From a virus, in the IMG/VR virus record IMGVR_UViG_3300045988_044701: 42,534 bases of DNA; one strand, written 5' to 3'. The notes beneath the pieces are model-generated. The model was not told the DNA's origin, did no database searches, and saw nothing but the letters and a program-made list of their open reading frames with translations. Positions 1 to 42,534 of this stretch are shown here, in pieces (within the stretch, counting starts at the first letter, position 1; every line of letters begins with the position of its first letter). The translations under genes were made by a program, and so were the position numbers.

Positions 1-99
1 AGGGCGCTGTACCTCATGCAATGCGCCGTTCGGCAGCTACACGGCTTGTAGAGGGAAAAGCAGAGCCGACAGCTGTACAGGCCATTCTTGGCCATGCCG
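1..99. repeat. 99-bp terminal direct repeat identical to 42436-42534 (circular-assembly overlap / permutation point)
   Basis: Read directly: the same 99 nt (agggcgctgtacctcatgcaatgcgcc...cattcttggccatgccg) occurs at both window ends. Both copies lie in the same frame of one integrase ORF. Confidence 0.93.
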
Positions 100-179
100 A
101 TTTCTCCACAACTGCCGATTATTACACTGGTCATGATACGGATTATCTCAAATCCGAGATGGAGAAATTCAAGAAATAG
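1..179 (+). CDS. int: Tyrosine integrase, C-terminal part (wrap-around continuation of the CDS starting at 41478)
   Basis: The frame from nt 3 reads GAVPHAMRRSAATRLVEGKAEPTAVQAILGHADFSTTADYYTGHDTDYLKSEMEKFKK, stop TAG at 177-179. H-x-x-R, LGH and the Y box are typical of tyrosine recombinases. Confidence 0.9.
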   Translation, partial: GAVPHAMRRSAATRLVEGKAEPTAVQAILGHADFSTTADYYTGHDTDYLKSEMEKFKK

Positions 180-4286: not shown

Positions 4287-4610
4287 ATGTATAATGCAGC
4301 TGAACTTTTCGTCATGGCATCTGACCCAAAGGCCGTTAAAGAAGTTTTTTTGAACAACGTCACCCTCAGCGTGGAGGACGATGCCTCTGGGTGCGTTGAT
4401 CTGGACGCCCAAAAGACTAAGCTTGAAAATATTTGGAAAATCGCCCACATGCCTTTTAAAGAGATGGTGGAAGAGACAGGCCTCACGAAGACGGCCTTTG
4501 CCAAGATGGCCGGGGTTCCTTATCGTACACTGCAAGGCTGGTGCGGTGAGACAAGAGAGTGCCCTGTATACGTCCGCTTCTTGCTGGCAGAGCATTACGG
4601 ACTGCTGTAA
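4287..4610 (+). CDS. HTH DNA-binding protein
   Basis: 107-aa ORF. The C-terminal TGLTKTAFAKMAGVPYRTLQGWCGETRECPVYVRFLLAEHY resembles the phage HTH pattern (..RTLQ.WE.G.R.P..). Confidence 0.6.
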   Translation: MYNAAELFVMASDPKAVKEVFLNNVTLSVEDDASGCVDLDAQKTKLENIWKIAHMPFKEMVEETGLTKTAFAKMAGVPYRTLQGWCGETRECPVYVRFLLAEHYGLL

Positions 4611-4623
4611 GGGGGGCGATTTT

Positions 4624-5988
4624 ATGCCGAGGCGAGGGCTTGTACCCATGGTATGGATTTTGATAGACCCAGATGGAGGCCGGCACAAAATTTATGATCT
4701 TTCCGAGTGGGCCCGTCAAAACGTGCAGCTTTTCTTTCCTGAGAATCCGCCAGAAAACGCCGCTCAACGGATCTGTATGGGCTTTCAGCCCATAGCAAGA
4801 GGGATGCGAGAGCCGGAAAGGAAGCACAAGGCCAAAACATACAAAAAATGGACGCTGGAGGAGCCGCCAAGACCGCGCACAGACGAAGATACAGAAGATT
4901 CTTTTGAGTCGGCCCGTCCGTGGGTGTCCATCGGAGACCGATTTGGGGCGTTGACGATCATAGACACAGCCCCGCAAAAAGTATACTCTGATGGTGGCGT
5001 TGCAGCCATGTGGAAAGTATACTGCCGTTTTTGTGGCAAGACAAAAGTGATGTCGTATGCAGCCATAAAAAGAGCGGTTTCTTGTGGATGCGTCGCAAGC
5101 ATCCAGAGAAAAATTTTGTGTCAGATCTGCTGGAAGCAATTTTCCGGCACTGCACGCTCAAGATACTGTCCAGAGTGTAAAAAGAAGTATGGAAAAGGAA
5201 GAGCATCGCTTAAATATTTTGAAACGCCCCGTCCAGACTGGGCCGAAGCCATCAAGCCAGAGCTTCCGCCAGAGCCAAAAGATGACCTTTCCGGAAAGAC
5301 TTTTGGAAGCTGGAAAGTGCTTTGCCCCGCAAAAGAGCCGCTTTACTATATATGCAGGTGCGAAAAATGCGGAAGCATAAAAAGCGTTTATCGAAGCTCT
5401 CTTCTTCAGGGGACAAGCACACAGTGCTTGAGCTGTGCCGGAAAAGGTCCTCAGCCCGGGATTTCAAAATCACACTTTAAAAAGGCGTGTGAAAGGTACG
5501 TCGGAAAAGTGACAAACGGCTGGCTTGTGCTGGAAGTGCTTCCAAATGATAAAAAAGGAAAAAGTTTCCCCTGTCGCGCGATATGCCCAAAATGTGGAAA
5601 AGAGACGGTCACAAGGCTGACAAGATTAAGCAAAATCCAGAGCTGTGCAGAGTGCAGCCAAGACCTTGGGAAAAAGGCGAGCGCAATCGCCCCAATCATC
5701 TGTGCAGATGGCTCAAAAATTACGTCAATTCAGTCCCGCATGGACGGAAAAATCAACAAAAATTCTTCTACTGGAGTCAACGGCGTTACAAAGAGAGAAA
5801 ACGGAAAATATTTTGCGTACATCAATTTTAAGCGGAAGCAAATCGGCCTCGGGATGTATGATAAGCTGGAGGACGCAATAGCCGCCCGAAAAAAGGCAGA
5901 AGAGCTGATCTATGCCCCATACCTTGAAGCGCATGAGGGATGGCAGGATGATCTAAAAAAAGCCCTTGAAGAGCTGAAGAAAAAGTAA
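4624..5988 (+). CDS. Three zinc-ribbon repeats plus a C-terminal AP2-like DNA-binding domain
   Basis: ATG at 4624 follows gggggg. A repeat of the form G.W.V......C.C..CG.......L.....SC..C occurs three times. The C-terminal GVTKRENGKYFAYINFKRKQIGLGMYDKLEDAIAARKKAEE is AP2-like. Confidence 0.65.
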   Translation: MPRRGLVPMVWILIDPDGGRHKIYDLSEWARQNVQLFFPENPPENAAQRICMGFQPIARGMREPERKHKAKTYKKWTLEEPPRPRTDEDTEDSFESARPWVSIGDRFGALTIIDTAPQKVYSDGGVAAMWKVYCRFCGKTKVMSYAAIKRAVSCGCVASIQRKILCQICWKQFSGTARSRYCPECKKKYGKGRASLKYFETPRPDWAEAIKPELPPEPKDDLSGKTFGSWKVLCPAKEPLYYICRCEKCGSIKSVYRSSLLQGTSTQCLSCAGKGPQPGISKSHFKKACERYVGKVTNGWLVLEVLPNDKKGKSFPCRAICPKCGKETVTRLTRLSKIQSCAECSQDLGKKASAIAPIICADGSKITSIQSRMDGKINKNSSTGVNGVTKRENGKYFAYINFKRKQIGLGMYDKLEDAIAARKKAEELIYAPYLEAHEGWQDDLKKALEELKKK

Positions 5989-8341: not shown

Positions 8342-9724
8342 TTAAATCATCTTTTCTATAAGGGGAACATAGCATTTTTTATATCCGATGTCGTTTGGAT
8401 GAGCAGTATCTCTGTCAAATGGTTCTCCACTTTTATAGTTGCAATAATACGCGGCCATTTCTTCTATACAAGTGTTCATCGCTCCGGCAGCATATACATC
8501 AGCAATCGGAACTCCCCACTTTGTGCAAATTTCAACGACCTTATCGTGTTGCTCTTTTTGCTTGGTCTGGTCTAATGCCGCCATGTGATGTGGCATAATA
8601 AAAATTAACTTCGATTTTGTCCATGTTTTTGTAATCAAACAAATCGATTTTTCAAGTGCCCCGCAAAATGTAGCGTCATTGAAATCGGACGCATTATAAC
8701 TGATTCCGACTTCTCCAACCGTTATATTTGCAGTAATATCGTTTGTGCCACCCTCTAAAAAAATAAGAGAGAAATCATCATTTTTGTGTTCGTTTACTGC
8801 CGTTTCTACTTGATTTACTACACCATCCCCCCACTTGTTAGACATACATTTTCCGCCAACTGAATAATCGTATAATTTGTTTTCAACATTATATTTTTGA
8901 GCAATTATTCTTGCATAAGATGTAGCAACATCATCAATCCGATTCCCAATTCCTTTTGCGATACTGTCTCCAAAGGAAAGAATATTTGTATTTCTAACCG
9001 TAGTCGTTTTTGTTAATAAGGAATCTTTAAGAGATTGCGACAAATCGGTTTCATTTATTACTTTAAAATTTTTATATGAATACGCTTGAATTACAGAATT
9101 AGACATAGATTTTGGTGTGATATAAGCGTAATCAGAACGTCTTACAGATAATGAGAAATAATCACCATCTATCTTATAAGAAAAACTTTTTGTATTTGAA
9201 ACTAATCCACTACTTTTTACAAATTCCTTGTTATTATCCCAGATATGAATATTATATATATAATTCGTATCGCATATAAATGTAACAGAAATGCCGCTAT
9301 CACATTTAATTAAATCGCTTCTTACACGTTTTAAATAATTGTCGTCAGAAGAATCCGTCTTAATCCCGCTATTCGAAATATACTCTCCTTGTTCCCAGCG
9401 TAAAAAACGATAAAAATACTTTTGATTAAAAATTAGTTCGTCAATGTCATGACTCAGCTCATATATATCTTCCTTTAGCTGCTTCACACTCCCATCAAGC
9501 TCCGTATAGCTCTCCGGGATGGTCTTGAGTGTCTCTGCGGCTTTGGCGTCGATATCTTTAGACAGCTGCTCTTTGGTGGATGCGGCAGTTGCCTCCATAT
9601 CTGCTTTAGCATTCTCAGAAATCTGCCCGCAATACTCCAGCCCGCTTGCAATGCTTTCCGTGATGTCTCTTCCGTGTATAGCAGTTCTGATTTTTTCGCA
9701 AATTTCAGTAAGATTCGTAGCCAT
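8342..9724 (-). CDS. Tail fibre / receptor-binding protein with a C-terminal SGNH (GDSL) hydrolase domain
   Basis: The N-terminal IRTAIHGRDITESIASGLE anchor motif is common in phage fibres. SGNH blocks are present: ILSFGDSIAKG, EGGTND and DTAHPN. It lies downstream of Tal. Confidence 0.75.
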   Translation of the reverse strand: MATNLTEICEKIRTAIHGRDITESIASGLEYCGQISENAKADMEATAASTKEQLSKDIDAKAAETLKTIPESYTELDGSVKQLKEDIYELSHDIDELIFNQKYFYRFLRWEQGEYISNSGIKTDSSDDNYLKRVRSDLIKCDSGISVTFICDTNYIYNIHIWDNNKEFVKSSGLVSNTKSFSYKIDGDYFSLSVRRSDYAYITPKSMSNSVIQAYSYKNFKVINETDLSQSLKDSLLTKTTTVRNTNILSFGDSIAKGIGNRIDDVATSYARIIAQKYNVENKLYDYSVGGKCMSNKWGDGVVNQVETAVNEHKNDDFSLIFLEGGTNDITANITVGEVGISYNASDFNDATFCGALEKSICLITKTWTKSKLIFIMPHHMAALDQTKQKEQHDKVVEICTKWGVPIADVYAAGAMNTCIEEMAAYYCNYKSGEPFDRDTAHPNDIGYKKCYVPLIEKMI

Positions 9725-37789: not shown

Positions 37790-38113
37790 ATGCGAAATGT
37801 GGAGAGAGCTAAAAAAATCGCTACTGAAAAAGGGATCAACGTTTCTTTTGTATGCCGAGAGATTGGAAAGAGCCGCGGCTATATTTCGCAAATGATAGTA
37901 AGCGGACGTGACTTCCCGGATGAAATGCTAGTGCCAGTAGCCAATGCGCTAGGCGTCACGGTTGAGGAGTTGACCGGCGAGGAGCAAAAAGAAAAGCCCA
38001 GCACCCAGGAGACGGTAAGCTTGAGCGGCCTGTCTCCTGAAGATGCTGAGCTTGTACAAAAGATTCTGAACGCTTCGGAAGCGAAAAAGAATGCGATCCG
38101 GGAGCTGCTCTGA
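37790..38113 (+). CDS. CI-like repressor (XRE HTH, no peptidase domain)
   Basis: 107 aa from the ATG at 37790: INVSFVCREIGKSRGYISQMIVSGRD. It is divergent from cro. Confidence 0.65.
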   Translation: MRNVERAKKIATEKGINVSFVCREIGKSRGYISQMIVSGRDFPDEMLVPVANALGVTVEELTGEEQKEKPSTQETVSLSGLSPEDAELVQKILNASEAKKNAIRELL

Positions 38114-38114
38114 A

Positions 38115-38219
38115 TCAGCTGTTTAGAATATCGAGGACTTTCTGACGAAATGCAGGGTCGCTCTTAAGCTTTTCGATGATTTTTCTGATTTCGTCCGGGC
38201 TGAAAGAGTTGTCCTGCAT
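38115..38219 (-). CDS. Micro-ORF (34 aa) with a strong RBS
   Basis: aaggagg, 8 nt, then ATG. It encodes MQDNSFSPDEIRKIIEKLKSDPAFRQKVLDILNS. It is below the ORF-track cut-off. Confidence 0.35.
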   Translation of the reverse strand: MQDNSFSPDEIRKIIEKLKSDPAFRQKVLDILNS

Positions 38220-38269
38220 TTTGTTTTATCCTCCTTATATAATATTATGAATGTGTGAGGTGTTGCGGT

Positions 38270-39523
38270 ATGGGGCTTCTATCTCTTGTCTTTGGGAAAA
38301 AGCCTACATCTGAAACAAAACCAGAAAGCAAACCTGATGCAGTAGCGGATAGTCCCAAAGCGGAAGAGAACGAGTTTTCAAAGCCCTTTGTGGATGAGCC
38401 ACCAATTCCCGATGGAGATAAAAAGTTTTACGAAAAGCCAGAGTATTACACTGACTTTGTTCCGTCTTTTTCGCTCAAAGCCAAAAACGGGATGCTGCGC
38501 GTGCAGTCTTTTGCGGAGCGAAAGAAAACATCTTATCCATCCCCCAGAGGGCTGTATGTGGGTGAAATTGCACTAATACACTATTGCTCCTTTGGCGATT
38601 ATCCAAACCCAAAGCGGGGGTACCCAGGCTTCTGGTGGTTTGAATACGGTATGAAAAACGTCAATTTTTATCTGGAATCCCTTGAAGAAAGAGGGTTTAT
38701 CCAGATGCAGGAAAACGGGAAATACGCGCCAACGGCATTTGGAAAGCAAGAAGTAGCTGACAACTTTTATGTGGTTTATATGATGAACGCTCCTGGGCTG
38801 ACGGTTGATAACCTTGAAGCGTCTGATGATTTTTCAGTTTGGGGCATCAATCGGAGACTTGCAGGTGGCGATCCGCGTAACTGGGAAGATGTTGTTTACC
38901 AGATATGGCGCGAGATTGACGAATACAAGGCTTGCAAAAAAGCCGAGGAAGATGCAAAACTCAAAGCCGCCGGAATTGATGTGGATAAATACAGGAAAAA
39001 GTTTGAATCTTCTTCGCTAAACTGGAATGAGCTTGGTTTTCGTGATAGTTTGGGCCGTACCGCTGCAGCTCTAAGCATAGATACGTCTTATGCAAATAAA
39101 CTTCCTGCCGGATATTTGCAGGCTGTAATGCGGCGCGTTCTGGACAATTTTTTGTCTATTGAGCGATTGAAAGATGTAGCTGGTTTTTTTGATAAAATTG
39201 ATCTTATCAAAAAAGATTTGAAACAGCTGTCTGCCGCAGAGATGCACGGCGCAAAATTCAATTACAGCCCATCATTGCTTTTATGGAGTGTCGAAACGCA
39301 CACCAAAGAACTGTTTTCGGTTGTAATTGAAAATTCTTCCAGCGCTCAAATGGACAAAATCTGCTCCTTAAAAACGGATCGTGGTCGAGTGAACTCTAAC
39401 CAGCGTTGGAAAGATTCTATTGACTTGCTTACACAAAATTATAATGATGATCTAAAATCAATCACTCAAAGCGAGTTTGAAAAACTTGAAAAAGCGAGAG
39501 AAGAAATGAAAAGCGAGGTGTAA
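38270..39523 (+). CDS. Hypothetical protein (417 aa), first gene of the immunity-region cassette
   Basis: ATG at 38270. GC is lower than in the flanks. No catalytic motif recognised. A winged-helix-like segment is present (NFYLESLEERGFIQMQENGKY). Confidence 0.6.
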   Translation: MGLLSLVFGKKPTSETKPESKPDAVADSPKAEENEFSKPFVDEPPIPDGDKKFYEKPEYYTDFVPSFSLKAKNGMLRVQSFAERKKTSYPSPRGLYVGEIALIHYCSFGDYPNPKRGYPGFWWFEYGMKNVNFYLESLEERGFIQMQENGKYAPTAFGKQEVADNFYVVYMMNAPGLTVDNLEASDDFSVWGINRRLAGGDPRNWEDVVYQIWREIDEYKACKKAEEDAKLKAAGIDVDKYRKKFESSSLNWNELGFRDSLGRTAAALSIDTSYANKLPAGYLQAVMRRVLDNFLSIERLKDVAGFFDKIDLIKKDLKQLSAAEMHGAKFNYSPSLLLWSVETHTKELFSVVIENSSSAQMDKICSLKTDRGRVNSNQRWKDSIDLLTQNYNDDLKSITQSEFEKLEKAREEMKSEV

Positions 39524-39525
39524 TC

Positions 39526-40245
39526 ATGGCGAATACCTGCCCCATATGCGGTGGCAAGCTGGGCATGCTGAACCGTGAGAAAAGCGCTGACGGCTCGATT
39601 TGCGCCAGCTGCAGCAACTTTTTCTTTTCAAAATTGGGCATCCGGGCAGCAAAGCAACCGACAGCTGCACTTGCGGGATACTGGGTTACGCTGGAAAGCC
39701 GTCGAAAAACATTCAAAGAAACCGATTCCATCTATGATGGTGACGCGCTCTTTGTGTCCATCGACAAAATCAACCGGCTTTTTTGCTTTGGGCACCGCGG
39801 CGGTGATAAAGGCCCTCGCATGATCTACAGCTTTGATGAAGTCGCTGGGTATGAATCTGACGCTCCAGACGATCTGACAGTGACAGAGACCAAGGGCGGC
39901 ATCGGTCGGGCCATGATCGGTGCAGCTGTTGCCGGTCCTGTGGGTGCGATCGTGGGCGCTACTACCGCCAAAACAGAGACCCGCAAAGGCAGCCGCAGCA
40001 AAGAAAACGTTTCCATCCGTTTTACGCTCCCTCTTGGAGAAACCAGTCTGCCAACAACGGTTTATCCCGGCGGCATGACCGCCTTTCTCAAGAGATGCAA
40101 AGTCGGCCAGGAGAAGCCACAGGCTGCCGCTCCGGCTGCCCCCAGCGCCGCTGATGAGCTTTTGAAGTTTAAGCAGCTACTGGATATGGGGGCCATCACG
40201 GAAGCGGAGTACAACGCAAAGAAAGCTCAGTTGCTTGGCCTGTGA
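39526..40245 (+). CDS. Zinc-ribbon / glycine-zipper / SHOCT-domain protein
   Basis: The N-terminal CPICGGK...CASC is DUF4428-like. GGIGRAMIGAAVAGPVGAIVGATTA is a glycine-zipper hydrophobic segment. The C-terminal ELLKFKQLLDMGAITEAEYNAKKAQLLGL is SHOCT-like. Confidence 0.6.
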   Translation: MANTCPICGGKLGMLNREKSADGSICASCSNFFFSKLGIRAAKQPTAALAGYWVTLESRRKTFKETDSIYDGDALFVSIDKINRLFCFGHRGGDKGPRMIYSFDEVAGYESDAPDDLTVTETKGGIGRAMIGAAVAGPVGAIVGATTAKTETRKGSRSKENVSIRFTLPLGETSLPTTVYPGGMTAFLKRCKVGQEKPQAAAPAAPSAADELLKFKQLLDMGAITEAEYNAKKAQLLGL

Positions 40246-40403
40246 ACTTGTTTACAACCGCATTATACAACCATTGATTGTATATCGTCAAGCGTAAAAA
40301 AATGCGCAAAACAATTAAAAATTTATTCATTTGCGTTGAATCGTTAAAATTTACGCTGACTTTTGCACGTTTTACGCTGAATACGCGCAAAATATGCGCG
40401 TTG

Positions 40404-40613
40404 TTATTCGTGGTTGCAAGGTTGTTGCAATTTTTGCAACAGCTGCCCGGCAAGCTCCCCGCCGGGAGCGGATGCTGCGGCGTAGAGAGCCTGAACAGAC
40501 TTTACCTTGCGGGTTACATAAAGCCGTGCCCTGGCTTGTCCCTCTGGCGGCAGGTCTTCATAGCACGCCAGCGCGGCACGGATGTGGGTACAAAAGCTCT
40601 GCATTTTATCCAT
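40404..40613 (-). CDS. Hypothetical protein (69 aa)
   Basis: ATG at 40613 follows gggagg. It lies downstream of a 36-aa micro-ORF. Confidence 0.45.
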   Translation of the reverse strand: MDKMQSFCTHIRAALACYEDLPPEGQARARLYVTRKVKSVQALYAAASAPGGELAGQLLQKLQQPCNHE

Positions 40614-40615
40614 GT

Positions 40616-40726
40616 TCAATCCTCCCAGGGTTGCGGGGTGCGTGTGGTGCCCGTCAAAACGGTTGCTGGCATCCCGTCAATAATGGTCATTTCGGCATCT
40701 TTGCCGTTTCTTTGCTGGATTTCCAT
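40616..40726 (-). CDS. Micro-ORF (36 aa)
   Basis: caggagg, 7 nt, then ATG at 40726. It encodes MEIQQRNGKDAEMTIIDGMPATVLTGTTRTPQPWED and is divergent from the XRE gene. Confidence 0.35.
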   Translation of the reverse strand: MEIQQRNGKDAEMTIIDGMPATVLTGTTRTPQPWED

Positions 40727-40886
40727 TTCGATTTCCTCCTGTTTTTTGTATATGGTGAACAATTTATAATCCAGATAATACCATGCTCCGCAGGAAAAGG
40801 AAATACAGAAAGATTGTGTCGAATGGCGCGGAGTTTTTCCGCGTCATTTTTGATTAAAAAACGCGTGTTTTTGTGGAGGTGAGTGC

Positions 40887-41474
40887 ATGAGCTACTTTAC
40901 GGCAGCCAAAATTGGGAAAGCGCTGGCGGAGGCCCGCGTTTCTGCAGGGTTGAGCCAGCGGGAAATGGCAATCGCCCTCAACCGTGGCGAGCGGACGGTG
41001 CAAAGCTGGGAAAAAGGGATTTCCAGCCCGGACAGCGACGAGGTTTTTGATTGGTGCAGCGCGTGCGGGGTGTCTCCCATATCCGTGTTTATGGAGATGA
41101 TCCACCCGGAGCTGTACGCGGTGCCCGATGACGGCAAGACCGACGAAGAGCTGGACGCGGAGTTGTGCCGCTTTGTGGTAAACTTGCCGCCGCTGACAAA
41201 ACGGCTGCTTCTCTTTATCCTGAAAGGAAGCCACGGCAGCAGCCCGCCCGCGGTGATCTCCGAGGTTGCGGCAAACCTGCACTGCCCGCTCAATAACCGG
41301 GTGAGCATCTGCGGCGCCGTGATTGACCATTACCGCTTTGCGCAATCTATGGGCCTTGACCCTTGCCCGCGGGAGCCACAGCCGCCCATCGAAGATTTGC
41401 GCATGAATTACAAGGCAGGCCGTGCGGCCTCTGAGAACGGCGCACAGGGCTATACAGGAAGCAGAAAGGAGTAA
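40887..41474 (+). CDS. XRE-family HTH protein with a C-terminal extension
   Basis: LSQREMAIALNRGERTVQSWEKGISSP is an HTH. 195 aa, immediately upstream of int. Confidence 0.65.
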   Translation: MSYFTAAKIGKALAEARVSAGLSQREMAIALNRGERTVQSWEKGISSPDSDEVFDWCSACGVSPISVFMEMIHPELYAVPDDGKTDEELDAELCRFVVNLPPLTKRLLLFILKGSHGSSPPAVISEVAANLHCPLNNRVSICGAVIDHYRFAQSMGLDPCPREPQPPIEDLRMNYKAGRAASENGAQGYTGSRKE

Positions 41475-41477
41475 GCC

Positions 41478-42534
41478 GTGGAATGTATCAGGTGCCACAA
41501 AGAAGTTCCAGACGGAGCCTTATTTTGCCCGTGGTGCGGTAAGCGCCAGCCTGACTATGCCCCGCCCGTGCAGAGAAAAAAACGCCGCCGCCCAAAAGGC
41601 AGCGGCAGCGTGTACAAGCTCAAAGATAACCGGGCAAAGCCCTTTGTAGCCCTTTCCTCCAAGCGGGAAGTCATCGGCACCTATGCCACGTCCGGAGAGG
41701 CCGTGCAGGCGTTGGATGCTTATAATGCGCAAACTATGCCCATTGCCCGGATGAAATACACTTTTGCGGACGTCTACGGCAAGTGGAGTGAGGCCCACTA
41801 TCAAGACGTTGGGCCAAAAGGCAGGCAAAGCTATGAAGCGGCCTATACAAAGGCACGGCGCTTGTGGGATAGGCAGATTCGGGAAATGGTAACGGAAGAC
41901 TATCAAACCGTGATAGATGACCTTGTAGCCGCTGGACTTTCCCGCTCAATGTGCGAGAAGCAACGGCAGCTTTTCAGCCAGCTGTGCAAATGGTCAATGG
42001 CAAACGGAATCATTTCCCACAATTTTGCAGAAGAGATCCGGCTTCCTGCACAACCAAAAAAGAAAAAGCGGGTACTCTCTACAGCGGAAATTGAAAAAAT
42101 TCAAAAAATTGCAGACAACAAAGCCGACAGCATGTATAATATAGCAAGGCTATCTCTTGTGCTCTACTATACTGGTATGCGTATCAATGAGCTGCTGACC
42201 CTCCGCCGACAAGACGTGAATCTGAAAGAGGGGTATATTGTGGGCGGAGAAAAGACCGAGGCGGGCCGTGAGCGCACTATTCCGGTTTTGGAGCCAATCA
42301 AGATGATTCTGGCGGATTGGATGTTGGACAGCGTGGGAAGTGAGCTGCTTCTCCCCCCTGCCCACGGCGGCAAGCAACGCAGCGTGAGCGCCACGGAAAA
42401 GGCATTTAAAAAGCTCATGGAGCGTTGCGGTATTGAGGGCGCTGTACCTCATGCAATGCGCCGTTCGGCAGCTACACGGCTTGTAGAGGGAAAAGCAGAG
42501 CCGACAGCTGTACAGGCCATTCTTGGCCATGCCG
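41478..42534 (+). CDS. int: Tyrosine integrase with an N-terminal zinc ribbon (runs off the window end and continues at nt 100-179)
   Basis: GTG follows aaaggag. The N-terminus is CIRCHKEVPDGALFCPWC. The core contains YYTGMRINELLTLR (catalytic Arg box). The frame is continuous through the 99-bp repeat into HAMRRSAAT...LGH...Y. Confidence 0.9.
   Translation, partial: MECIRCHKEVPDGALFCPWCGKRQPDYAPPVQRKKRRRPKGSGSVYKLKDNRAKPFVALSSKREVIGTYATSGEAVQALDAYNAQTMPIARMKYTFADVYGKWSEAHYQDVGPKGRQSYEAAYTKARRLWDRQIREMVTEDYQTVIDDLVAAGLSRSMCEKQRQLFSQLCKWSMANGIISHNFAEEIRLPAQPKKKKRVLSTAEIEKIQKIADNKADSMYNIARLSLVLYYTGMRINELLTLRRQDVNLKEGYIVGGEKTEAGRERTIPVLEPIKMILADWMLDSVGSELLLPPAHGGKQRSVSATEKAFKKLMERCGIEGAVPHAMRRSAATRLVEGKAEPTAVQAILGHA
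42436..42534. repeat. Second copy of the 99-bp terminal repeat
   Basis: Identical to nt 1-99. Confidence 0.93.

What the first reader, a model, noticed from the sequence alone, without database searches (positions are those of the whole stretch)
38115..40245. Translationally coupled two-gene cassette in the repressor-integrase interval (candidate prophage defence or exclusion module)
Downstream of the CI-like repressor and on the same strand lie a 417-aa protein with no motif I recognise and a 239-aa protein. The two are separated by only 2 nt (stop at 39521-39523, ATG at 39526).

The second protein combines an N-terminal CxxC...CxxC zinc ribbon, a glycine-zipper hydrophobic segment (GGIGRAMIGAAVAGPVGAIVGATTA) and a SHOCT-like C-terminus. 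This architecture would suit a membrane-perturbing effector.

The cassette looks clearly more AT-rich than its flanks, which suggests horizontal acquisition. It occupies the slot where prophages commonly carry genes expressed during lysogeny, such as superinfection exclusion or abortive infection genes. A 34-aa micro-ORF with a strong RBS (38115-38219) is divergent from it. The cassette matches no named defence system that I know.
Basis: partly seen in the sequence, partly recalled or inferred. Interest (0 to 1): 0.65.

Follow-up and report, generated by a model that had tools for sequence, protein, structure and literature searches.

The report
Mosaic gene pair beside prophage repressor
Two real, translationally coupled genes of unknown function sit between the repressor and the integrase of a gut temperate phage. 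They are separable, shuffled modules rather than a fixed two-gene system, and are most likely a membrane-based device that keeps other phages out; this has not been tested.

Summary
Both ORFs are real: gene 1 at 38270..39523 (417 aa) and gene 2 at 39526..40245 (239 aa). The 2-nt junction, with GAGGTG inside gene 1's last codons, is as described.

Gene 2 has a DUF4428 zinc ribbon, a PH-like fold with a glycine-zipper insertion, and SHOCT (PHROG 888, function unknown).

Gene 1 matches no curated family. It has two modules:
- a winged-helix-like head, from a family of about 560 clusters that usually carries a SAP insert;
- an orphan helical tail.

The window is a circular phage contig. The layout repressor, micro-ORF, gene 1, gene 2, two small antisense genes, HTH and tyrosine integrase recurs in related gut phages.

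The pair is not obligate. In 84 distinct loci with gene 2, gene 2 stands alone in 42, and an identical gene 2 protein occurs with and without a partner. Gene 1 also occurs without gene 2.

In nearly every complete case the tail module has a coupled downstream partner: gene 2 (43 of 69 loci), a secreted protein (8), or the head module as a separate gene when the tail itself carries transmembrane helices (13).

Only gene 1 is AT-rich (42.8% against 53.3% for the window; gene 2 is 55.1%).

No known defence family matches. A Rex-like or Sie-like exclusion role is plausible but untested.

The parts
37791..38113 (+). CI-like HTH_3 repressor. The ORF list starts it at GTG 37748; ATG 37791 with an SD-like GCGAGG is the likelier start. 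It lies on the same strand as, and immediately upstream of, the gene pair.
   Evidence: Pfam HTH_3 at 1.9e-5 and PHROG 8/4 transcriptional repressor. It is 53% identical to the 111-aa protein at the same position in L001.
38115..38219 (-). Conserved 34-aa micro-ORF, convergent with the repressor and divergent from gene 1. It travels with the repressor type, not with gene 1.
   Evidence: SD AAGGAGG read. There are 15 near-identical copies in related loci and a 39-aa homologue at 53% identity in L164. Gene callers call it in L001-L004.
38270..39523 (+). Gene 1, 417 aa. It consists of a conserved N-terminal MGLLSLVFGKK peptide, a disordered linker (aa 1-41), a head module, a disordered linker (aa 243-277) and a tail module.
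   Evidence: 38 homologues, alignment A1 and an AF2 model with pLDDT 74.5. There is no Pfam, NCBIfam, PADLOC or PDB sequence hit.
38402..38974 (+). Head (N) module of gene 1, aa 45-235. It is winged-helix-like and is a SAP-less member of a family that usually carries a SAP insert in the wing.
   Evidence: The profile search gives 562 cluster representatives; 82 of 147 have SAP. Foldseek's top hits are MntR/DtxR wHTH regulators, but weak (E about 0.5, probability 0.8-0.9). There is a weak Sso10a wHTH hit at aa 129-160. In other loci this module exists as a separate 205-aa gene.
39083..39520 (+). Tail (C) module of gene 1, aa 272-417. It is an orphan all-helical domain with the motif LKT-x-RGR-x-NSNQ-[KR]-W and ends in ...EV.
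   Evidence: Alignment A4. No significant Pfam or PDB match. It exists on its own as 203-246-aa proteins and as roughly 300-aa proteins with two transmembrane helices. It is the lowest-GC part of the region (39.6%).
39515..39528 (+). Coupling junction GAGGTG-TAA-TC-ATG. The SD for gene 2 is formed by gene 1's last two codons (E-V).
   Evidence: Read. The same ...EV* junction with a 2-3-nt gap, or a 4-nt overlap, is present at nearly all tail-module genes whatever the downstream partner.
39526..40245 (+). Gene 2, 239 aa. Domains: DUF4428 zinc ribbon (aa 4-31, nt 39535-39618); PH-like beta sandwich with a glycine-zipper insertion (aa 124-148, nt 39895-39969); SHOCT (aa 210-237, nt 40153-40236).
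   Evidence: Pfam. PHROG 888 at 1.2e-32. PF27000 PH_gly_zipper is precomputed for homologues of 86-94% identity. The AF2 model has pLDDT 60 and its top Foldseek hits are PH domains, though none is significant.
40262..40291 (-). Promoter-like site TTGACG-N18-TATAAT, 16 nt beyond the gene 2 stop, pointing antisense into gene 2.
   Evidence: It matches 11 of 12 consensus positions. A promoter-like match (-35 TTGAC[AG]) is present at the same distance in 61 of 88 gene 2 loci, and the spacer varies. Transcription has not been shown.
40404..40762 (-). Two small conserved genes convergent with gene 2 (71 aa and about 36-48 aa). They are part of the constant backbone of the slot.
   Evidence: 75% and 78% amino-acid identity to the 69-aa and 36-aa genes of L001. 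They are called in L001-L008.
40887..41474 (+). 195-aa HTH_3/HTH_31 protein that precedes the integrase in all relatives.
   Evidence: Pfam. 54% identical to the L001 197-aa protein.
41478..42534 (+). Tyrosine integrase. It runs off the window end and continues at window 3..173 (circular contig).
   Evidence: tblastn with the L001 integrase (Pfam Phage_integrase) gives 55% identity over 356 aa plus 53% over the last 58 aa at the window start. The window has a 99-nt terminal repeat.

Best explanation
These are two separable accessory genes of the lysogeny module of a temperate phage of human-gut Firmicutes. They are probably transcribed with the repressor.

Gene 2 is the constant element. It is a cytoplasmic protein that most likely docks on the inner face of the membrane. 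It has a zinc ribbon, a PH-like fold whose glycine-zipper loop could dip into the bilayer, and a SHOCT tail. It can work alone.

Gene 1 is a later, AT-rich insertion in front of gene 2. It joins a winged-helix head, from a family that usually carries a SAP DNA-binding insert, to an orphan helical 'coupler' tail. In nature that tail nearly always has a translationally coupled partner, and each such gene pair contains one membrane or envelope component.

The most likely function is superinfection exclusion or abortive defence at the membrane, with the logic of lambda cI-rexA-rexB. A nucleic-acid-recognising cytoplasmic part (gene 1) would be brought to a membrane part (gene 2). The result would be either a block of incoming phage DNA or a collapse of the membrane.

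Shown here: the gene anatomy, the domain content, the synteny, the module shuffling, and the fission and permutation of head and tail.
Inferred: membrane association, DNA binding, physical contact between gene 1 and gene 2, expression in lysogens, and any anti-phage effect.
For: Position and synteny:
- The order repressor, micro-ORF, gene 1, gene 2, two antisense small genes, HTH and integrase recurs in L001-L008, L163-L166 and L222.
- No terminator-like site was found between the repressor and gene 1.

The slot is hypervariable on a constant backbone.

Evidence that gene 2 is membrane-oriented:
- DUF4428 plus PH_gly_zipper plus SHOCT.
- A PH-like model with an inserted glycine-zipper loop.
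- A hydropathy maximum of 1.56.
- In SNIPE defence nucleases that lack a transmembrane helix, the N-terminal region, which carries the membrane anchor in other homologues, is a PH or a DUF4428 domain (10.1101/2025.11.03.685801).

Evidence that gene 1's head binds nucleic acid:
- wHTH-like fold.
- 82 of 147 relatives have SAP and 12 have HeH.
- Rare fusions to RNase_T plus BRCT and to a DUF4011 helicase with an MTES_1575 nuclease.

Rosetta-stone link between head and tail:
- They are fused as head-tail in gene 1.
- In 13 loci they are split and permuted, as a transmembrane-anchored tail gene followed by a head gene.

Membrane rule for the tail module. Of 69 tail-module loci:
- 43 are followed by gene 2;
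- 8 by a signal-peptide protein;
- 1 by a zinc-ribbon plus transmembrane protein;
- 13 carry their own two transmembrane helices and are followed by the head module, and gene 2 is absent from those loci.

Relatives in similar places:
- The head-plus-SAP relative P0034 also sits between a small regulator-like gene and an integrase.
- P0031 lies next to serine recombinases, and in one contig next to ABC-3C components.
Against: - There is no experimental or annotated function for any of the families involved. PADLOC has no hit for gene 1, gene 2, the split pair, the secreted partner or the SAP relatives.
- Gene 2 is alone in half of the loci, and an identical gene 2 protein occurs with and without the tail gene. 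An obligatory gene 1-gene 2 complex is therefore excluded, and contact between them is only inferred.
- A 52%-identical gene 1 (P0016) has no membrane partner.
- One partner class is secreted and so cannot touch a cytoplasmic tail module.
- The structural matches are all non-significant (E 0.1-0.5). The gene 2 model is poor (pLDDT 60; zipper region below 30).
- The window's own head module lacks SAP.
- The one published test of SHOCT did not show oligomerisation (PMC3581485).
- The glycine zipper is only borderline hydrophobic.
- Most loci come from one large gut virome data set, so the counts are not independent.
Confidence: 0.45

Rival explanations
1. Addiction or toxin-antitoxin-like module. 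Gene 2 is a membrane-damaging toxin. It is held in check either by the upstream protein, acting as a DNA-binding antitoxin or autoregulator, or by an antisense RNA made from the conserved promoter just past its stop codon. The module stabilises the prophage or triggers abortive death.
For: - Tight translational coupling.
- In three loci the upstream partner is a 76-aa ribbon-helix-helix-like protein with the same ...KSEV junction.
- A conserved convergent promoter-like site overlaps the 3' end of gene 2. This is the geometry of Bacillus type I systems (own knowledge).
- The glycine zipper is a plausible membrane-active element.
Against: - Gene 2 stands without any coupled upstream gene in 42 of 84 loci, with an identical protein sequence.
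- Some gene 2 loci (L009, L010, L015) also lack the antisense promoter.
- At 239 aa with three globular domains, gene 2 is unlike type I toxins.
- The upstream partner is usually only the tail module, which has no recognisable DNA-binding fold.
- The tail module is coupled just as tightly to a secreted protein or to the head module.
Confidence: 0.15
2. Lysogenic-conversion or envelope-fitness genes that are not directed against phages. Examples would be immunity to or transport of membrane-active peptides, or envelope stress tolerance. PH-domain membrane proteins have such a role in leaderless-bacteriocin systems.
For: - Bacterial PH-domain proteins take part in enterocin DD14 transport (PMC8657885).
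- Partners of the tail module include a secreted protein.
- Morons in this slot are not always anti-phage (own knowledge).
Against: - The head module is related to SAP/wHTH proteins and is fused in rare cases to nucleases and helicases. This points to nucleic acid, not to envelope chemistry.
- No bacteriocin or transporter genes are nearby.
- The fast turnover of alternatives in a single slot is more typical of conflict genes.
Confidence: 0.15
3. Regulators of the phage's own lysis-lysogeny decision. Gene 1 is an auxiliary DNA-binding protein that biases the switch, as lambda RexA does independently of RexB. Gene 2 is a membrane-state sensor.
For: - The genes lie next to the repressor and cro-like genes and to a second HTH gene.
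- The head module has a wHTH-like fold.
Against: - Closely related phages with the same repressor and integrase backbone do without gene 1, without gene 2, or carry quite different genes in the slot.
- A core switch component would not be so dispensable.
Confidence: 0.1
4. There is no functional relation between the two genes. They are two independent morons placed side by side by recombination at a shared junction sequence, and the coupling only ensures translation of the downstream gene.
For: - Each gene occurs without the other.
- Their GC contents differ (42.8% against 55.1%).
- The GAGGTGTAA junction is shared by all partner types and could be a recombination site.
- In 'alone' loci gene 2 keeps its own GAGGTG SD.
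Against: - The tail module almost never lacks a coupled partner, and 65 of 66 complete gene pairs contain exactly one membrane or envelope component. Random juxtaposition would not be this regular.
- 43 of 69 tail-module loci carry gene 2 as the partner, across tail variants only about 40% identical to each other.
Confidence: 0.15

Closest known systems
Lambda RexA/RexB (cI-rexA-rexB operon) and the Rex-like mycobacteriophage Sbash gp30/gp31 system
   Same: The two genes lie directly beside the prophage repressor, in the lysogeny module. One product is cytoplasmic with DNA-binding character and the other is membrane-associated. [quoted passage not shown] Sbash gp30/gp31 is described as a prophage-mediated viral defence system (PMC6426596).
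   Different: There is no sequence or fold relation. Neither protein gives a Pfam hit to Rex families, and RexA is not among the Foldseek hits. RexB-type partners are polytopic membrane proteins (own knowledge), whereas gene 2 has only one borderline hydrophobic loop inside a PH-like fold. Rex needs both genes for exclusion (own knowledge), whereas here each gene commonly occurs alone.
Pfam DUF4428 / PH_gly_zipper (PF27000) / SHOCT proteins; PHROG 888
   Same: Gene 2 is a member. It matches DUF4428 and SHOCT above the curated cutoffs and PHROG 888 at 1.2e-32. Homologues of 86-94% identity carry PF27000. A 37%-identical relative sits directly after a 213-aa repressor-like HTH protein in another gut phage.
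   Different: These families have no known function, so membership explains nothing about mechanism. The coupling to a tail-module gene is not described for them.
SNIPE (DUF4041 plus GIY-YIG membrane-bound nuclease that cuts phage DNA during injection)
   Same: In SNIPE homologues without a transmembrane helix, PH or DUF4428 domains sit in the N-terminal region, which carries the membrane anchor in other homologues; the authors propose membrane targeting for the PH domains (10.1101/2025.11.03.685801). The overall logic is the same: a membrane module joined to a DNA-binding module.
   Different: Neither gene has a DUF4041 or GIY-YIG domain, or any other recognisable nuclease. Here the parts lie on two proteins. 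Any relation is by analogy only.
Superinfection-exclusion genes of Gram-positive prophages in the integrase-repressor interval (lactococcal Sie2009, Streptococcus thermophilus TP-J34 Ltp). Recalled from own knowledge, not compared by sequence here.
   Same: The genomic slot is the same and expression in the lysogen is presumed. The action is at the membrane against incoming DNA.
   Different: Those are small transmembrane proteins or lipoproteins. Gene 2 has no signal peptide or lipobox, and its zinc ribbon argues for a cytoplasmic location. No PHROG exclusion family was hit.
SAP-domain 'hypothetical proteins' of Firmicutes and their phages (the head-module family: 562 cluster representatives at 50% identity)
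   Same: Gene 1 aa 45-235 is a clear member, with E-values down to 1e-80. It shares the GYPGFWWFEYG and RGFIQ...KY.LTE.G motifs. Relatives also occupy integrase-adjacent slots.
   Different: The window's clade has lost the SAP insert. It has swapped the usual C-terminal domains for the orphan tail module.

Membership tests
Pfam DUF4428 (PF14471) | N-terminal zinc ribbon with two CxxC pairs, scoring above the gathering threshold | tested here: met
   aa 4-31, 35.8 bits against a cutoff of 27.8, E 7.2e-9. C5, C8, C26 and C29 are conserved in alignment A3.
Pfam SHOCT (PF09851) | Short two-helix C-terminal domain, scoring above the gathering threshold | tested here: met
   aa 210-237, 35.9 bits against a cutoff of 27. 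The two helices are modelled at pLDDT 82-86.
Pfam PH_gly_zipper (PF27000) | PH-like beta sandwich carrying a glycine-zipper insertion | tested here: inconclusive
   PF27000 was not returned by the local Pfam scan. It is precomputed for homologues of 86-94% identity and for L001-L010. The AF2 model shows strands, an inserted zipper loop and a C-terminal helix, and PH domains top the Foldseek list, but E is 0.1 or worse and pLDDT is 60.
PHROG 888 (unknown function) | Significant profile match | tested here: met
   E 1.2e-32, aa 2-155.
Lambda RexA/RexB exclusion system | Sequence or fold homology to RexA and RexB | tested here: not met
   No Pfam hit for gene 1, and only DUF4428 and SHOCT for gene 2. 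RexA is not among the PDB Foldseek hits.
Lambda RexA/RexB exclusion system | Two genes next to the repressor, one cytoplasmic and one membrane protein, both required | tested here: inconclusive
   Position and strand are met. Membrane association is inferred only. The requirement for both genes is contradicted by the frequent solo occurrence of each gene.
Type II toxin-antitoxin pair | Toxin gene always accompanied by its cognate antitoxin gene | tested here: not met
   Gene 2 has no coupled upstream gene in 42 of 84 distinct loci. An identical gene 2 protein occurs with and without a partner.
Type I toxin-antitoxin (antisense RNA) | Small hydrophobic toxin peptide plus an overlapping antisense RNA | tested here: not met
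   A conserved convergent promoter-like site exists. However, gene 2 is a 239-aa multidomain protein, the antisense RNA is not shown, and the promoter is absent in L009, L010 and L015.
Known anti-phage defence systems (PADLOC-DB 2.0) | Profile match to any component | tested here: not met
   No hit for gene 1, gene 2, the split tail and head genes, the secreted partner or the SAP relatives. DefenseFinder and newer models were not available.
SNIPE (DUF4041 plus GIY-YIG) | DUF4041 and a GIY-YIG nuclease domain | tested here: not met
   Neither domain was found by Pfam or NCBIfam. Only the DUF4428/PH type of N-terminal module is shared.
SAP-domain DNA-binding proteins (PF02037) | A SAP helix-extended loop-helix motif | tested here: not met
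   The window protein has a deletion exactly where relatives carry SAP (alignment A1). It gives no SAP hit. SAP is present in 82 of 147 relatives.
Winged-helix DNA-binding fold (head module) | Three-helix bundle plus a beta-hairpin wing, and DNA binding | tested here: inconclusive
   The model shows H120-126, H131-140, E144-146, E152-154 and H156-164. Foldseek hits to MntR/DtxR have E about 0.5. Sso10a hit at E 0.024. HTH_12 is found in one relative. DNA binding cannot be tested here.

The most novel reading that the evidence does not exclude
The tail module of gene 1 defines an undescribed, modular prophage defence family. In it an orphan helical 'coupler' domain joins a wHTH/SAP nucleic-acid-recognition module to interchangeable membrane components. 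These are a PH-glycine-zipper protein, a zinc-ribbon transmembrane protein, its own transmembrane helices, or a secreted protein. The effect would be to place a DNA sensor at the site where phage genomes enter. The repeated fusion, fission and permutation of the three parts in one prophage slot would then record an arms race.
Probability: 0.3. Interest if true: 0.7.

Novelty: new variant of a known kind. Interest (0 to 1): 0.5.

Why it matters
Prophages of gut Firmicutes are a large and hardly explored source of phage-resistance genes. Almost all characterised systems come from Proteobacteria, Bacillus, lactic acid bacteria or mycobacteria.

This locus offers a compact set of natural 'experiments' on one phage backbone:
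- gene 2 alone;
- tail plus gene 2;
- head-tail plus gene 2;
- head-tail alone;
- transmembrane-anchored tail plus head;
- tail plus a secreted protein.

These variants could be cloned side by side. That would show what a PH-glycine-zipper-SHOCT protein does, and whether the two uncharacterised domains of gene 1 form a membrane-tethered DNA sensor. It would also give a first function to DUF4428, PF27000, PHROG 888 and a SAP-linked family of about 560 clusters. If the genes turn out not to affect phages, the locus is an ordinary moron hotspot.

Tried and rejected
- **Curated libraries for gene 1.** Pfam, NCBIfam, PADLOC, PHROGs and PDB sequence searches gave nothing significant.
- **Profile searches for the two modules.** The tail-module profile gave only a ribosomal L23 match against PDB (E 0.016), judged to be chance because the model is all-helical, and scattered single Pfam hits with E above 0.007. 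The head-family profile against PDB hit only the SAP motif, which the window protein lacks.
- **Foldseek of the gene 1 model.** Against PDB no hit had E at or below 0.001. Against BFVD the single good hit (A0A8S5RLQ2, 300 aa, 37% identity) is simply another uncharacterised viral protein that shares the domain.
- **Is the tail module a diverged Phage_Mu_F domain?** I considered this because five members of the 147-protein set scanned carry a Phage_Mu_F match and one BFVD hit is named 'minor capsid protein'. In P0290 the MuF motif is an extra C-terminal piece after a different domain, so I dropped the idea.
- **Cultured phages.** blastn and tblastn against INPHARED found nothing for gene 1 and one unannotated contig for gene 2.
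- **Host identification.** The GTDB genome scan returned only distant gene 2 relatives (24-32% identity), in MAGs of Clostridia, Faecalibacterium, Acutalibacteraceae, Lachnospiraceae and Akkermansia. The rest of the hits were SHOCT-only. Cluster look-ups gave no organism names. The host remains unassigned.
- **Literature.** Searches for DUF4428, SHOCT with glycine zipper and prophage, and SAP domain with anti-phage found no functional study of these proteins.


Full report
**1. What is in the sequence**

- Gene 1 starts at ATG 38270, with SD GAGGTG at 38257-62, and ends with TAA at 39521-23 (417 aa).
- Gene 2 starts at ATG 39526 and ends at 40245 (239 aa).
- The SD of gene 2 (GAGGTG, 39515-20) is made of the last two codons of gene 1, so the two are set up for translational coupling.

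Both are real genes. Gene 1 has 38 homologues in the 5.8-billion-protein collection, and the full-length ones begin with the same MGLLSLVFGKK. Gene 2 has 368, of which more than 120 clusters are at least 86% identical.

**2. Surroundings**

- Upstream on the same strand lies an HTH_3 repressor-like gene (37791..38113).
- Facing the other way are a cro-like HTH gene and an AntA/KilAC anti-repressor.
- Between the repressor and gene 1, on the minus strand, is the 34-aa micro-ORF with a strong SD. It is conserved in related loci and has a 53%-identical 39-aa homologue in a diverged relative, so it is probably a real small gene.
- Downstream of gene 2 come two small convergent genes, a 195-aa HTH protein and a tyrosine integrase.
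- The integrase was missing from the ORF list only because it runs off the window end and continues at the window start. The window carries a 99-nt terminal direct repeat, so it is a circularly assembled phage genome.

The 'repressor-integrase interval' is therefore correct.

The consensus scan found no terminator-like site between the repressor and gene 1, and no clear promoter in the 50 nt before gene 1. Co-transcription with the repressor is likely but not shown.

**3. Composition**

Only gene 1 is AT-rich. It has 42.8% GC, its tail module 39.6%, and it falls in the lowest 2.5% of same-size windows. Gene 2 has 55.1% GC against a window mean of 53.3%. The two genes therefore have different histories.

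**4. Gene 2**

- Pfam finds DUF4428 (a zinc ribbon with four conserved Cys) and SHOCT above their cutoffs. PHROG 888, of unknown function, matches at 1.2e-32.
- Close homologues carry the recent Pfam family PF27000, PH_gly_zipper.
- I built an AF2 model from an alignment of two clades about 37% identical to each other. It is weak (pLDDT 60). It shows a zinc ribbon, a helix, a beta sandwich interrupted by the unmodelled glycine-zipper loop, a closing helix and the two SHOCT helices. The top Foldseek matches are PH domains, but none is significant.
- The zipper is only borderline hydrophobic (1.56). A re-entrant or interfacial loop is therefore more likely than a classical transmembrane helix. 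This is inference.
- There is no signal peptide, and a Cys4 zinc ribbon argues for a cytoplasmic location.
- A 37%-identical relative lies directly after a 213-aa repressor-like HTH protein in an unrelated gut phage contig.
- The only literature context found is a SNIPE preprint. In SNIPE homologues without a transmembrane helix, the N-terminal region, which carries the membrane anchor in other homologues, is a PH or a DUF4428 domain.
- The published test of SHOCT did not support oligomerisation.

**5. Gene 1**

No curated library recognises gene 1. The alignment shows two modules.

*Head module (aa 45-235).*
- It belongs to a family with 562 cluster representatives.
- 82 of 147 members carry a SAP motif and 12 an HeH motif, inserted exactly where the window protein has a deletion.
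- Rare members are fused to RNase_T plus BRCT, to a DUF4011 helicase with an MTES_1575 nuclease, to TPR repeats, or to a MuF piece.
- The AF2 model (pLDDT 74.5) shows a helix-helix-helix-hairpin arrangement. Three weak lines point to a winged helix: Foldseek hits to MntR/DtxR, an Sso10a profile hit, and HTH_12 in a relative.

*Tail module (aa 272-417).*
- It is an all-helical orphan with an invariant LKT..G motif.
- It has no significant Pfam or PDB match.

**6. The pair is not a fixed unit**

I collected two sets of loci: 80 IMG/VR loci with gene 2 and 69 with the tail module. To these I added contigs from the protein look-ups.

*Loci with gene 2.* Among 84 distinct loci:
- gene 2 has no coupled upstream gene in 42;
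- a tail-only gene in 37;
- a full head-tail gene in 3;
- a ribbon-helix-helix-like 76-aa gene in 2.

An identical gene 2 protein occurs alone (L007) and coupled (L008). Conversely, a 52%-identical full gene 1 (P0016) occupies the same slot without gene 2.

*Loci with the tail module.* Among the 69 loci:
- the coupled downstream gene is gene 2 in 43;
- a roughly 245-aa signal-peptide protein in 8;
- a zinc-ribbon plus transmembrane protein in 1;
- in 13 loci the tail protein itself carries two transmembrane helices and is followed, again coupled, by the head module as a separate 205-aa gene. Gene 2 is absent from those loci.

Nearly all tail genes end in ...EV-stop, which supplies GAGGTG to the next gene.

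Two regularities follow:
- Head and tail are linked by fusion, fission and permutation. This is a Rosetta-stone argument that they act together.
- Almost every tail-module gene pair contains one membrane or envelope component.

**7. Interpretation**

The best reading has gene 2 as an autonomous, membrane-associating accessory protein of the lysogeny module. Gene 1 is a later insertion that brings a nucleic-acid-binding head, through a coupler tail, to a membrane component.

The following features fit a superinfection-exclusion or abortive-infection role with the logic of lambda cI-rexA-rexB or Sbash gp30/gp31:
- the slot;
- the rapid turnover of alternatives on a constant backbone;
- the nucleic-acid flavour of the head family;
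- relatives sitting next to integrases, recombinases and an ABC-3C system.

There is no homology to those systems and no hit in PADLOC, so this is 'works like', not 'is a member of'. I put this reading at 0.45.

The rivals are a TA-like addiction module, envelope-fitness conversion genes, switch regulators, and two unrelated morons. Each keeps 0.1-0.15. The solo occurrence of gene 2 argues strongly against a classical TA pair. The membrane rule argues against pure coincidence.

**8. A side finding that bears on gene 2**

Sixteen nucleotides past the stop codon of gene 2, on the opposite strand, lies TTGACG-N18-TATAAT (40291..40262). A promoter-like match (-35 TTGAC[AG]) is present at the same distance in 61 of 88 gene 2 loci, and the spacer varies. 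A transcript from it would run antisense into gene 2. It is absent where gene 2 is followed by a different gene (L009, L010, L015). This could be a regulatory antisense RNA. It has not been tested.

**9. Limits**

- All functional statements are inference.
- Structural matches are non-significant.
- Most loci come from one gut virome data set (IMG/VR 3300045988), so the counts are not independent.
- The host is not identified. Only distant relatives turn up, in Clostridia, Faecalibacterium, Lachnospiraceae and Akkermansia MAGs.

**10. Verdict**

This is a real and well-delimited locus. The 'two-gene defence cassette' reading is right about the place and the likely kind of function, but wrong about the unit.

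Novelty: a new variant of a known kind, namely lysogeny-module exclusion or moron genes, built from uncharacterised domains.

Interest: 0.5.

Noticed in passing
window 40262..40291 (minus strand): Promoter-like site TTGACG-N18-TATAAT, 16 nt beyond the gene 2 stop, pointing antisense into gene 2. A promoter-like match (-35 TTGAC[AG]) is present in 61 of 88 related loci and the spacer varies. This suggests a functional promoter for an antisense RNA.
   Followed up: partly
window 38115..38219 (minus strand): The 34-aa micro-ORF is conserved at protein level (a 53%-identical 39-aa homologue in L164). It has a weak resemblance to Nif11-type leader peptides (Pfam E 0.084). A different, unrelated 37-aa micro-ORF occupies the same position beside the 124-aa CI-type repressor in L005 and L163, so the micro-ORF travels with the repressor type.
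   Followed up: partly
window 1..99 and 42436..42534: 99-nt terminal direct repeat. The window is a circularly assembled phage genome of about 42.4 kb, and the integrase gene is split across the ends.
   Followed up: yes
window 4381..5988 (+): A 535-aa ORF on the opposite strand to the surrounding late genes, just beyond the GH25 lysin. It has no Pfam, NCBIfam or PADLOC hit and could be a second moron.
   Followed up: partly
window 8342..9724 (-): The lowest-GC stretch of the window (about 35%) is a 460-aa protein with a GDSL lipase/acylhydrolase domain, next to a Prophage_tail protein. It is probably a tail-associated enzyme, and its low GC suggests host-range module exchange.
   Followed up: partly
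L007, L011, L013 and similar loci, about 15-45 nt upstream of gene 2: Where gene 2 stands alone, a GC hairpin with a T run (CGGCAGCTGGTTGGCTGCC-TATTTTTG) lies immediately before its SD. This leaves no room for a promoter, so gene 2 would be expressed by terminator read-through or the hairpin is regulatory.
   Followed up: no
L182 3924..4559: A fourth kind of tail-module partner: a 211-aa protein with an N-terminal double zinc ribbon and a transmembrane segment.
   Followed up: no
L009, L010 and L015, upstream of gene 2: A 76-aa ribbon-helix-helix-like protein ending in ...KSEV is coupled to gene 2 through the same junction. In L009 the locus lies outside the repressor-integrase slot, next to Bro-N, a HepT-like/NTase pair and a double-zinc-ribbon gene.
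   Followed up: partly
gene 1 aa 1-12 (window 38270..38305) and all relatives in A1: All proteins of the family start with MG[LF][LFW]x[LIF][FIL]xKK, including tail-only proteins and the distant SAP relatives. This short hydrophobic-then-lysine peptide might be a membrane-targeting amphipathic tag.
   Followed up: no
L157-L159 (relatives of the gene 1 head module): The SAP-bearing relative P0031 always follows a 163-aa protein of Pfam family ArfC (PF27542). It lies beside two serine recombinases, and in one contig beside ABC-3C components (DUF2326, MC7, CTD11).
   Followed up: no
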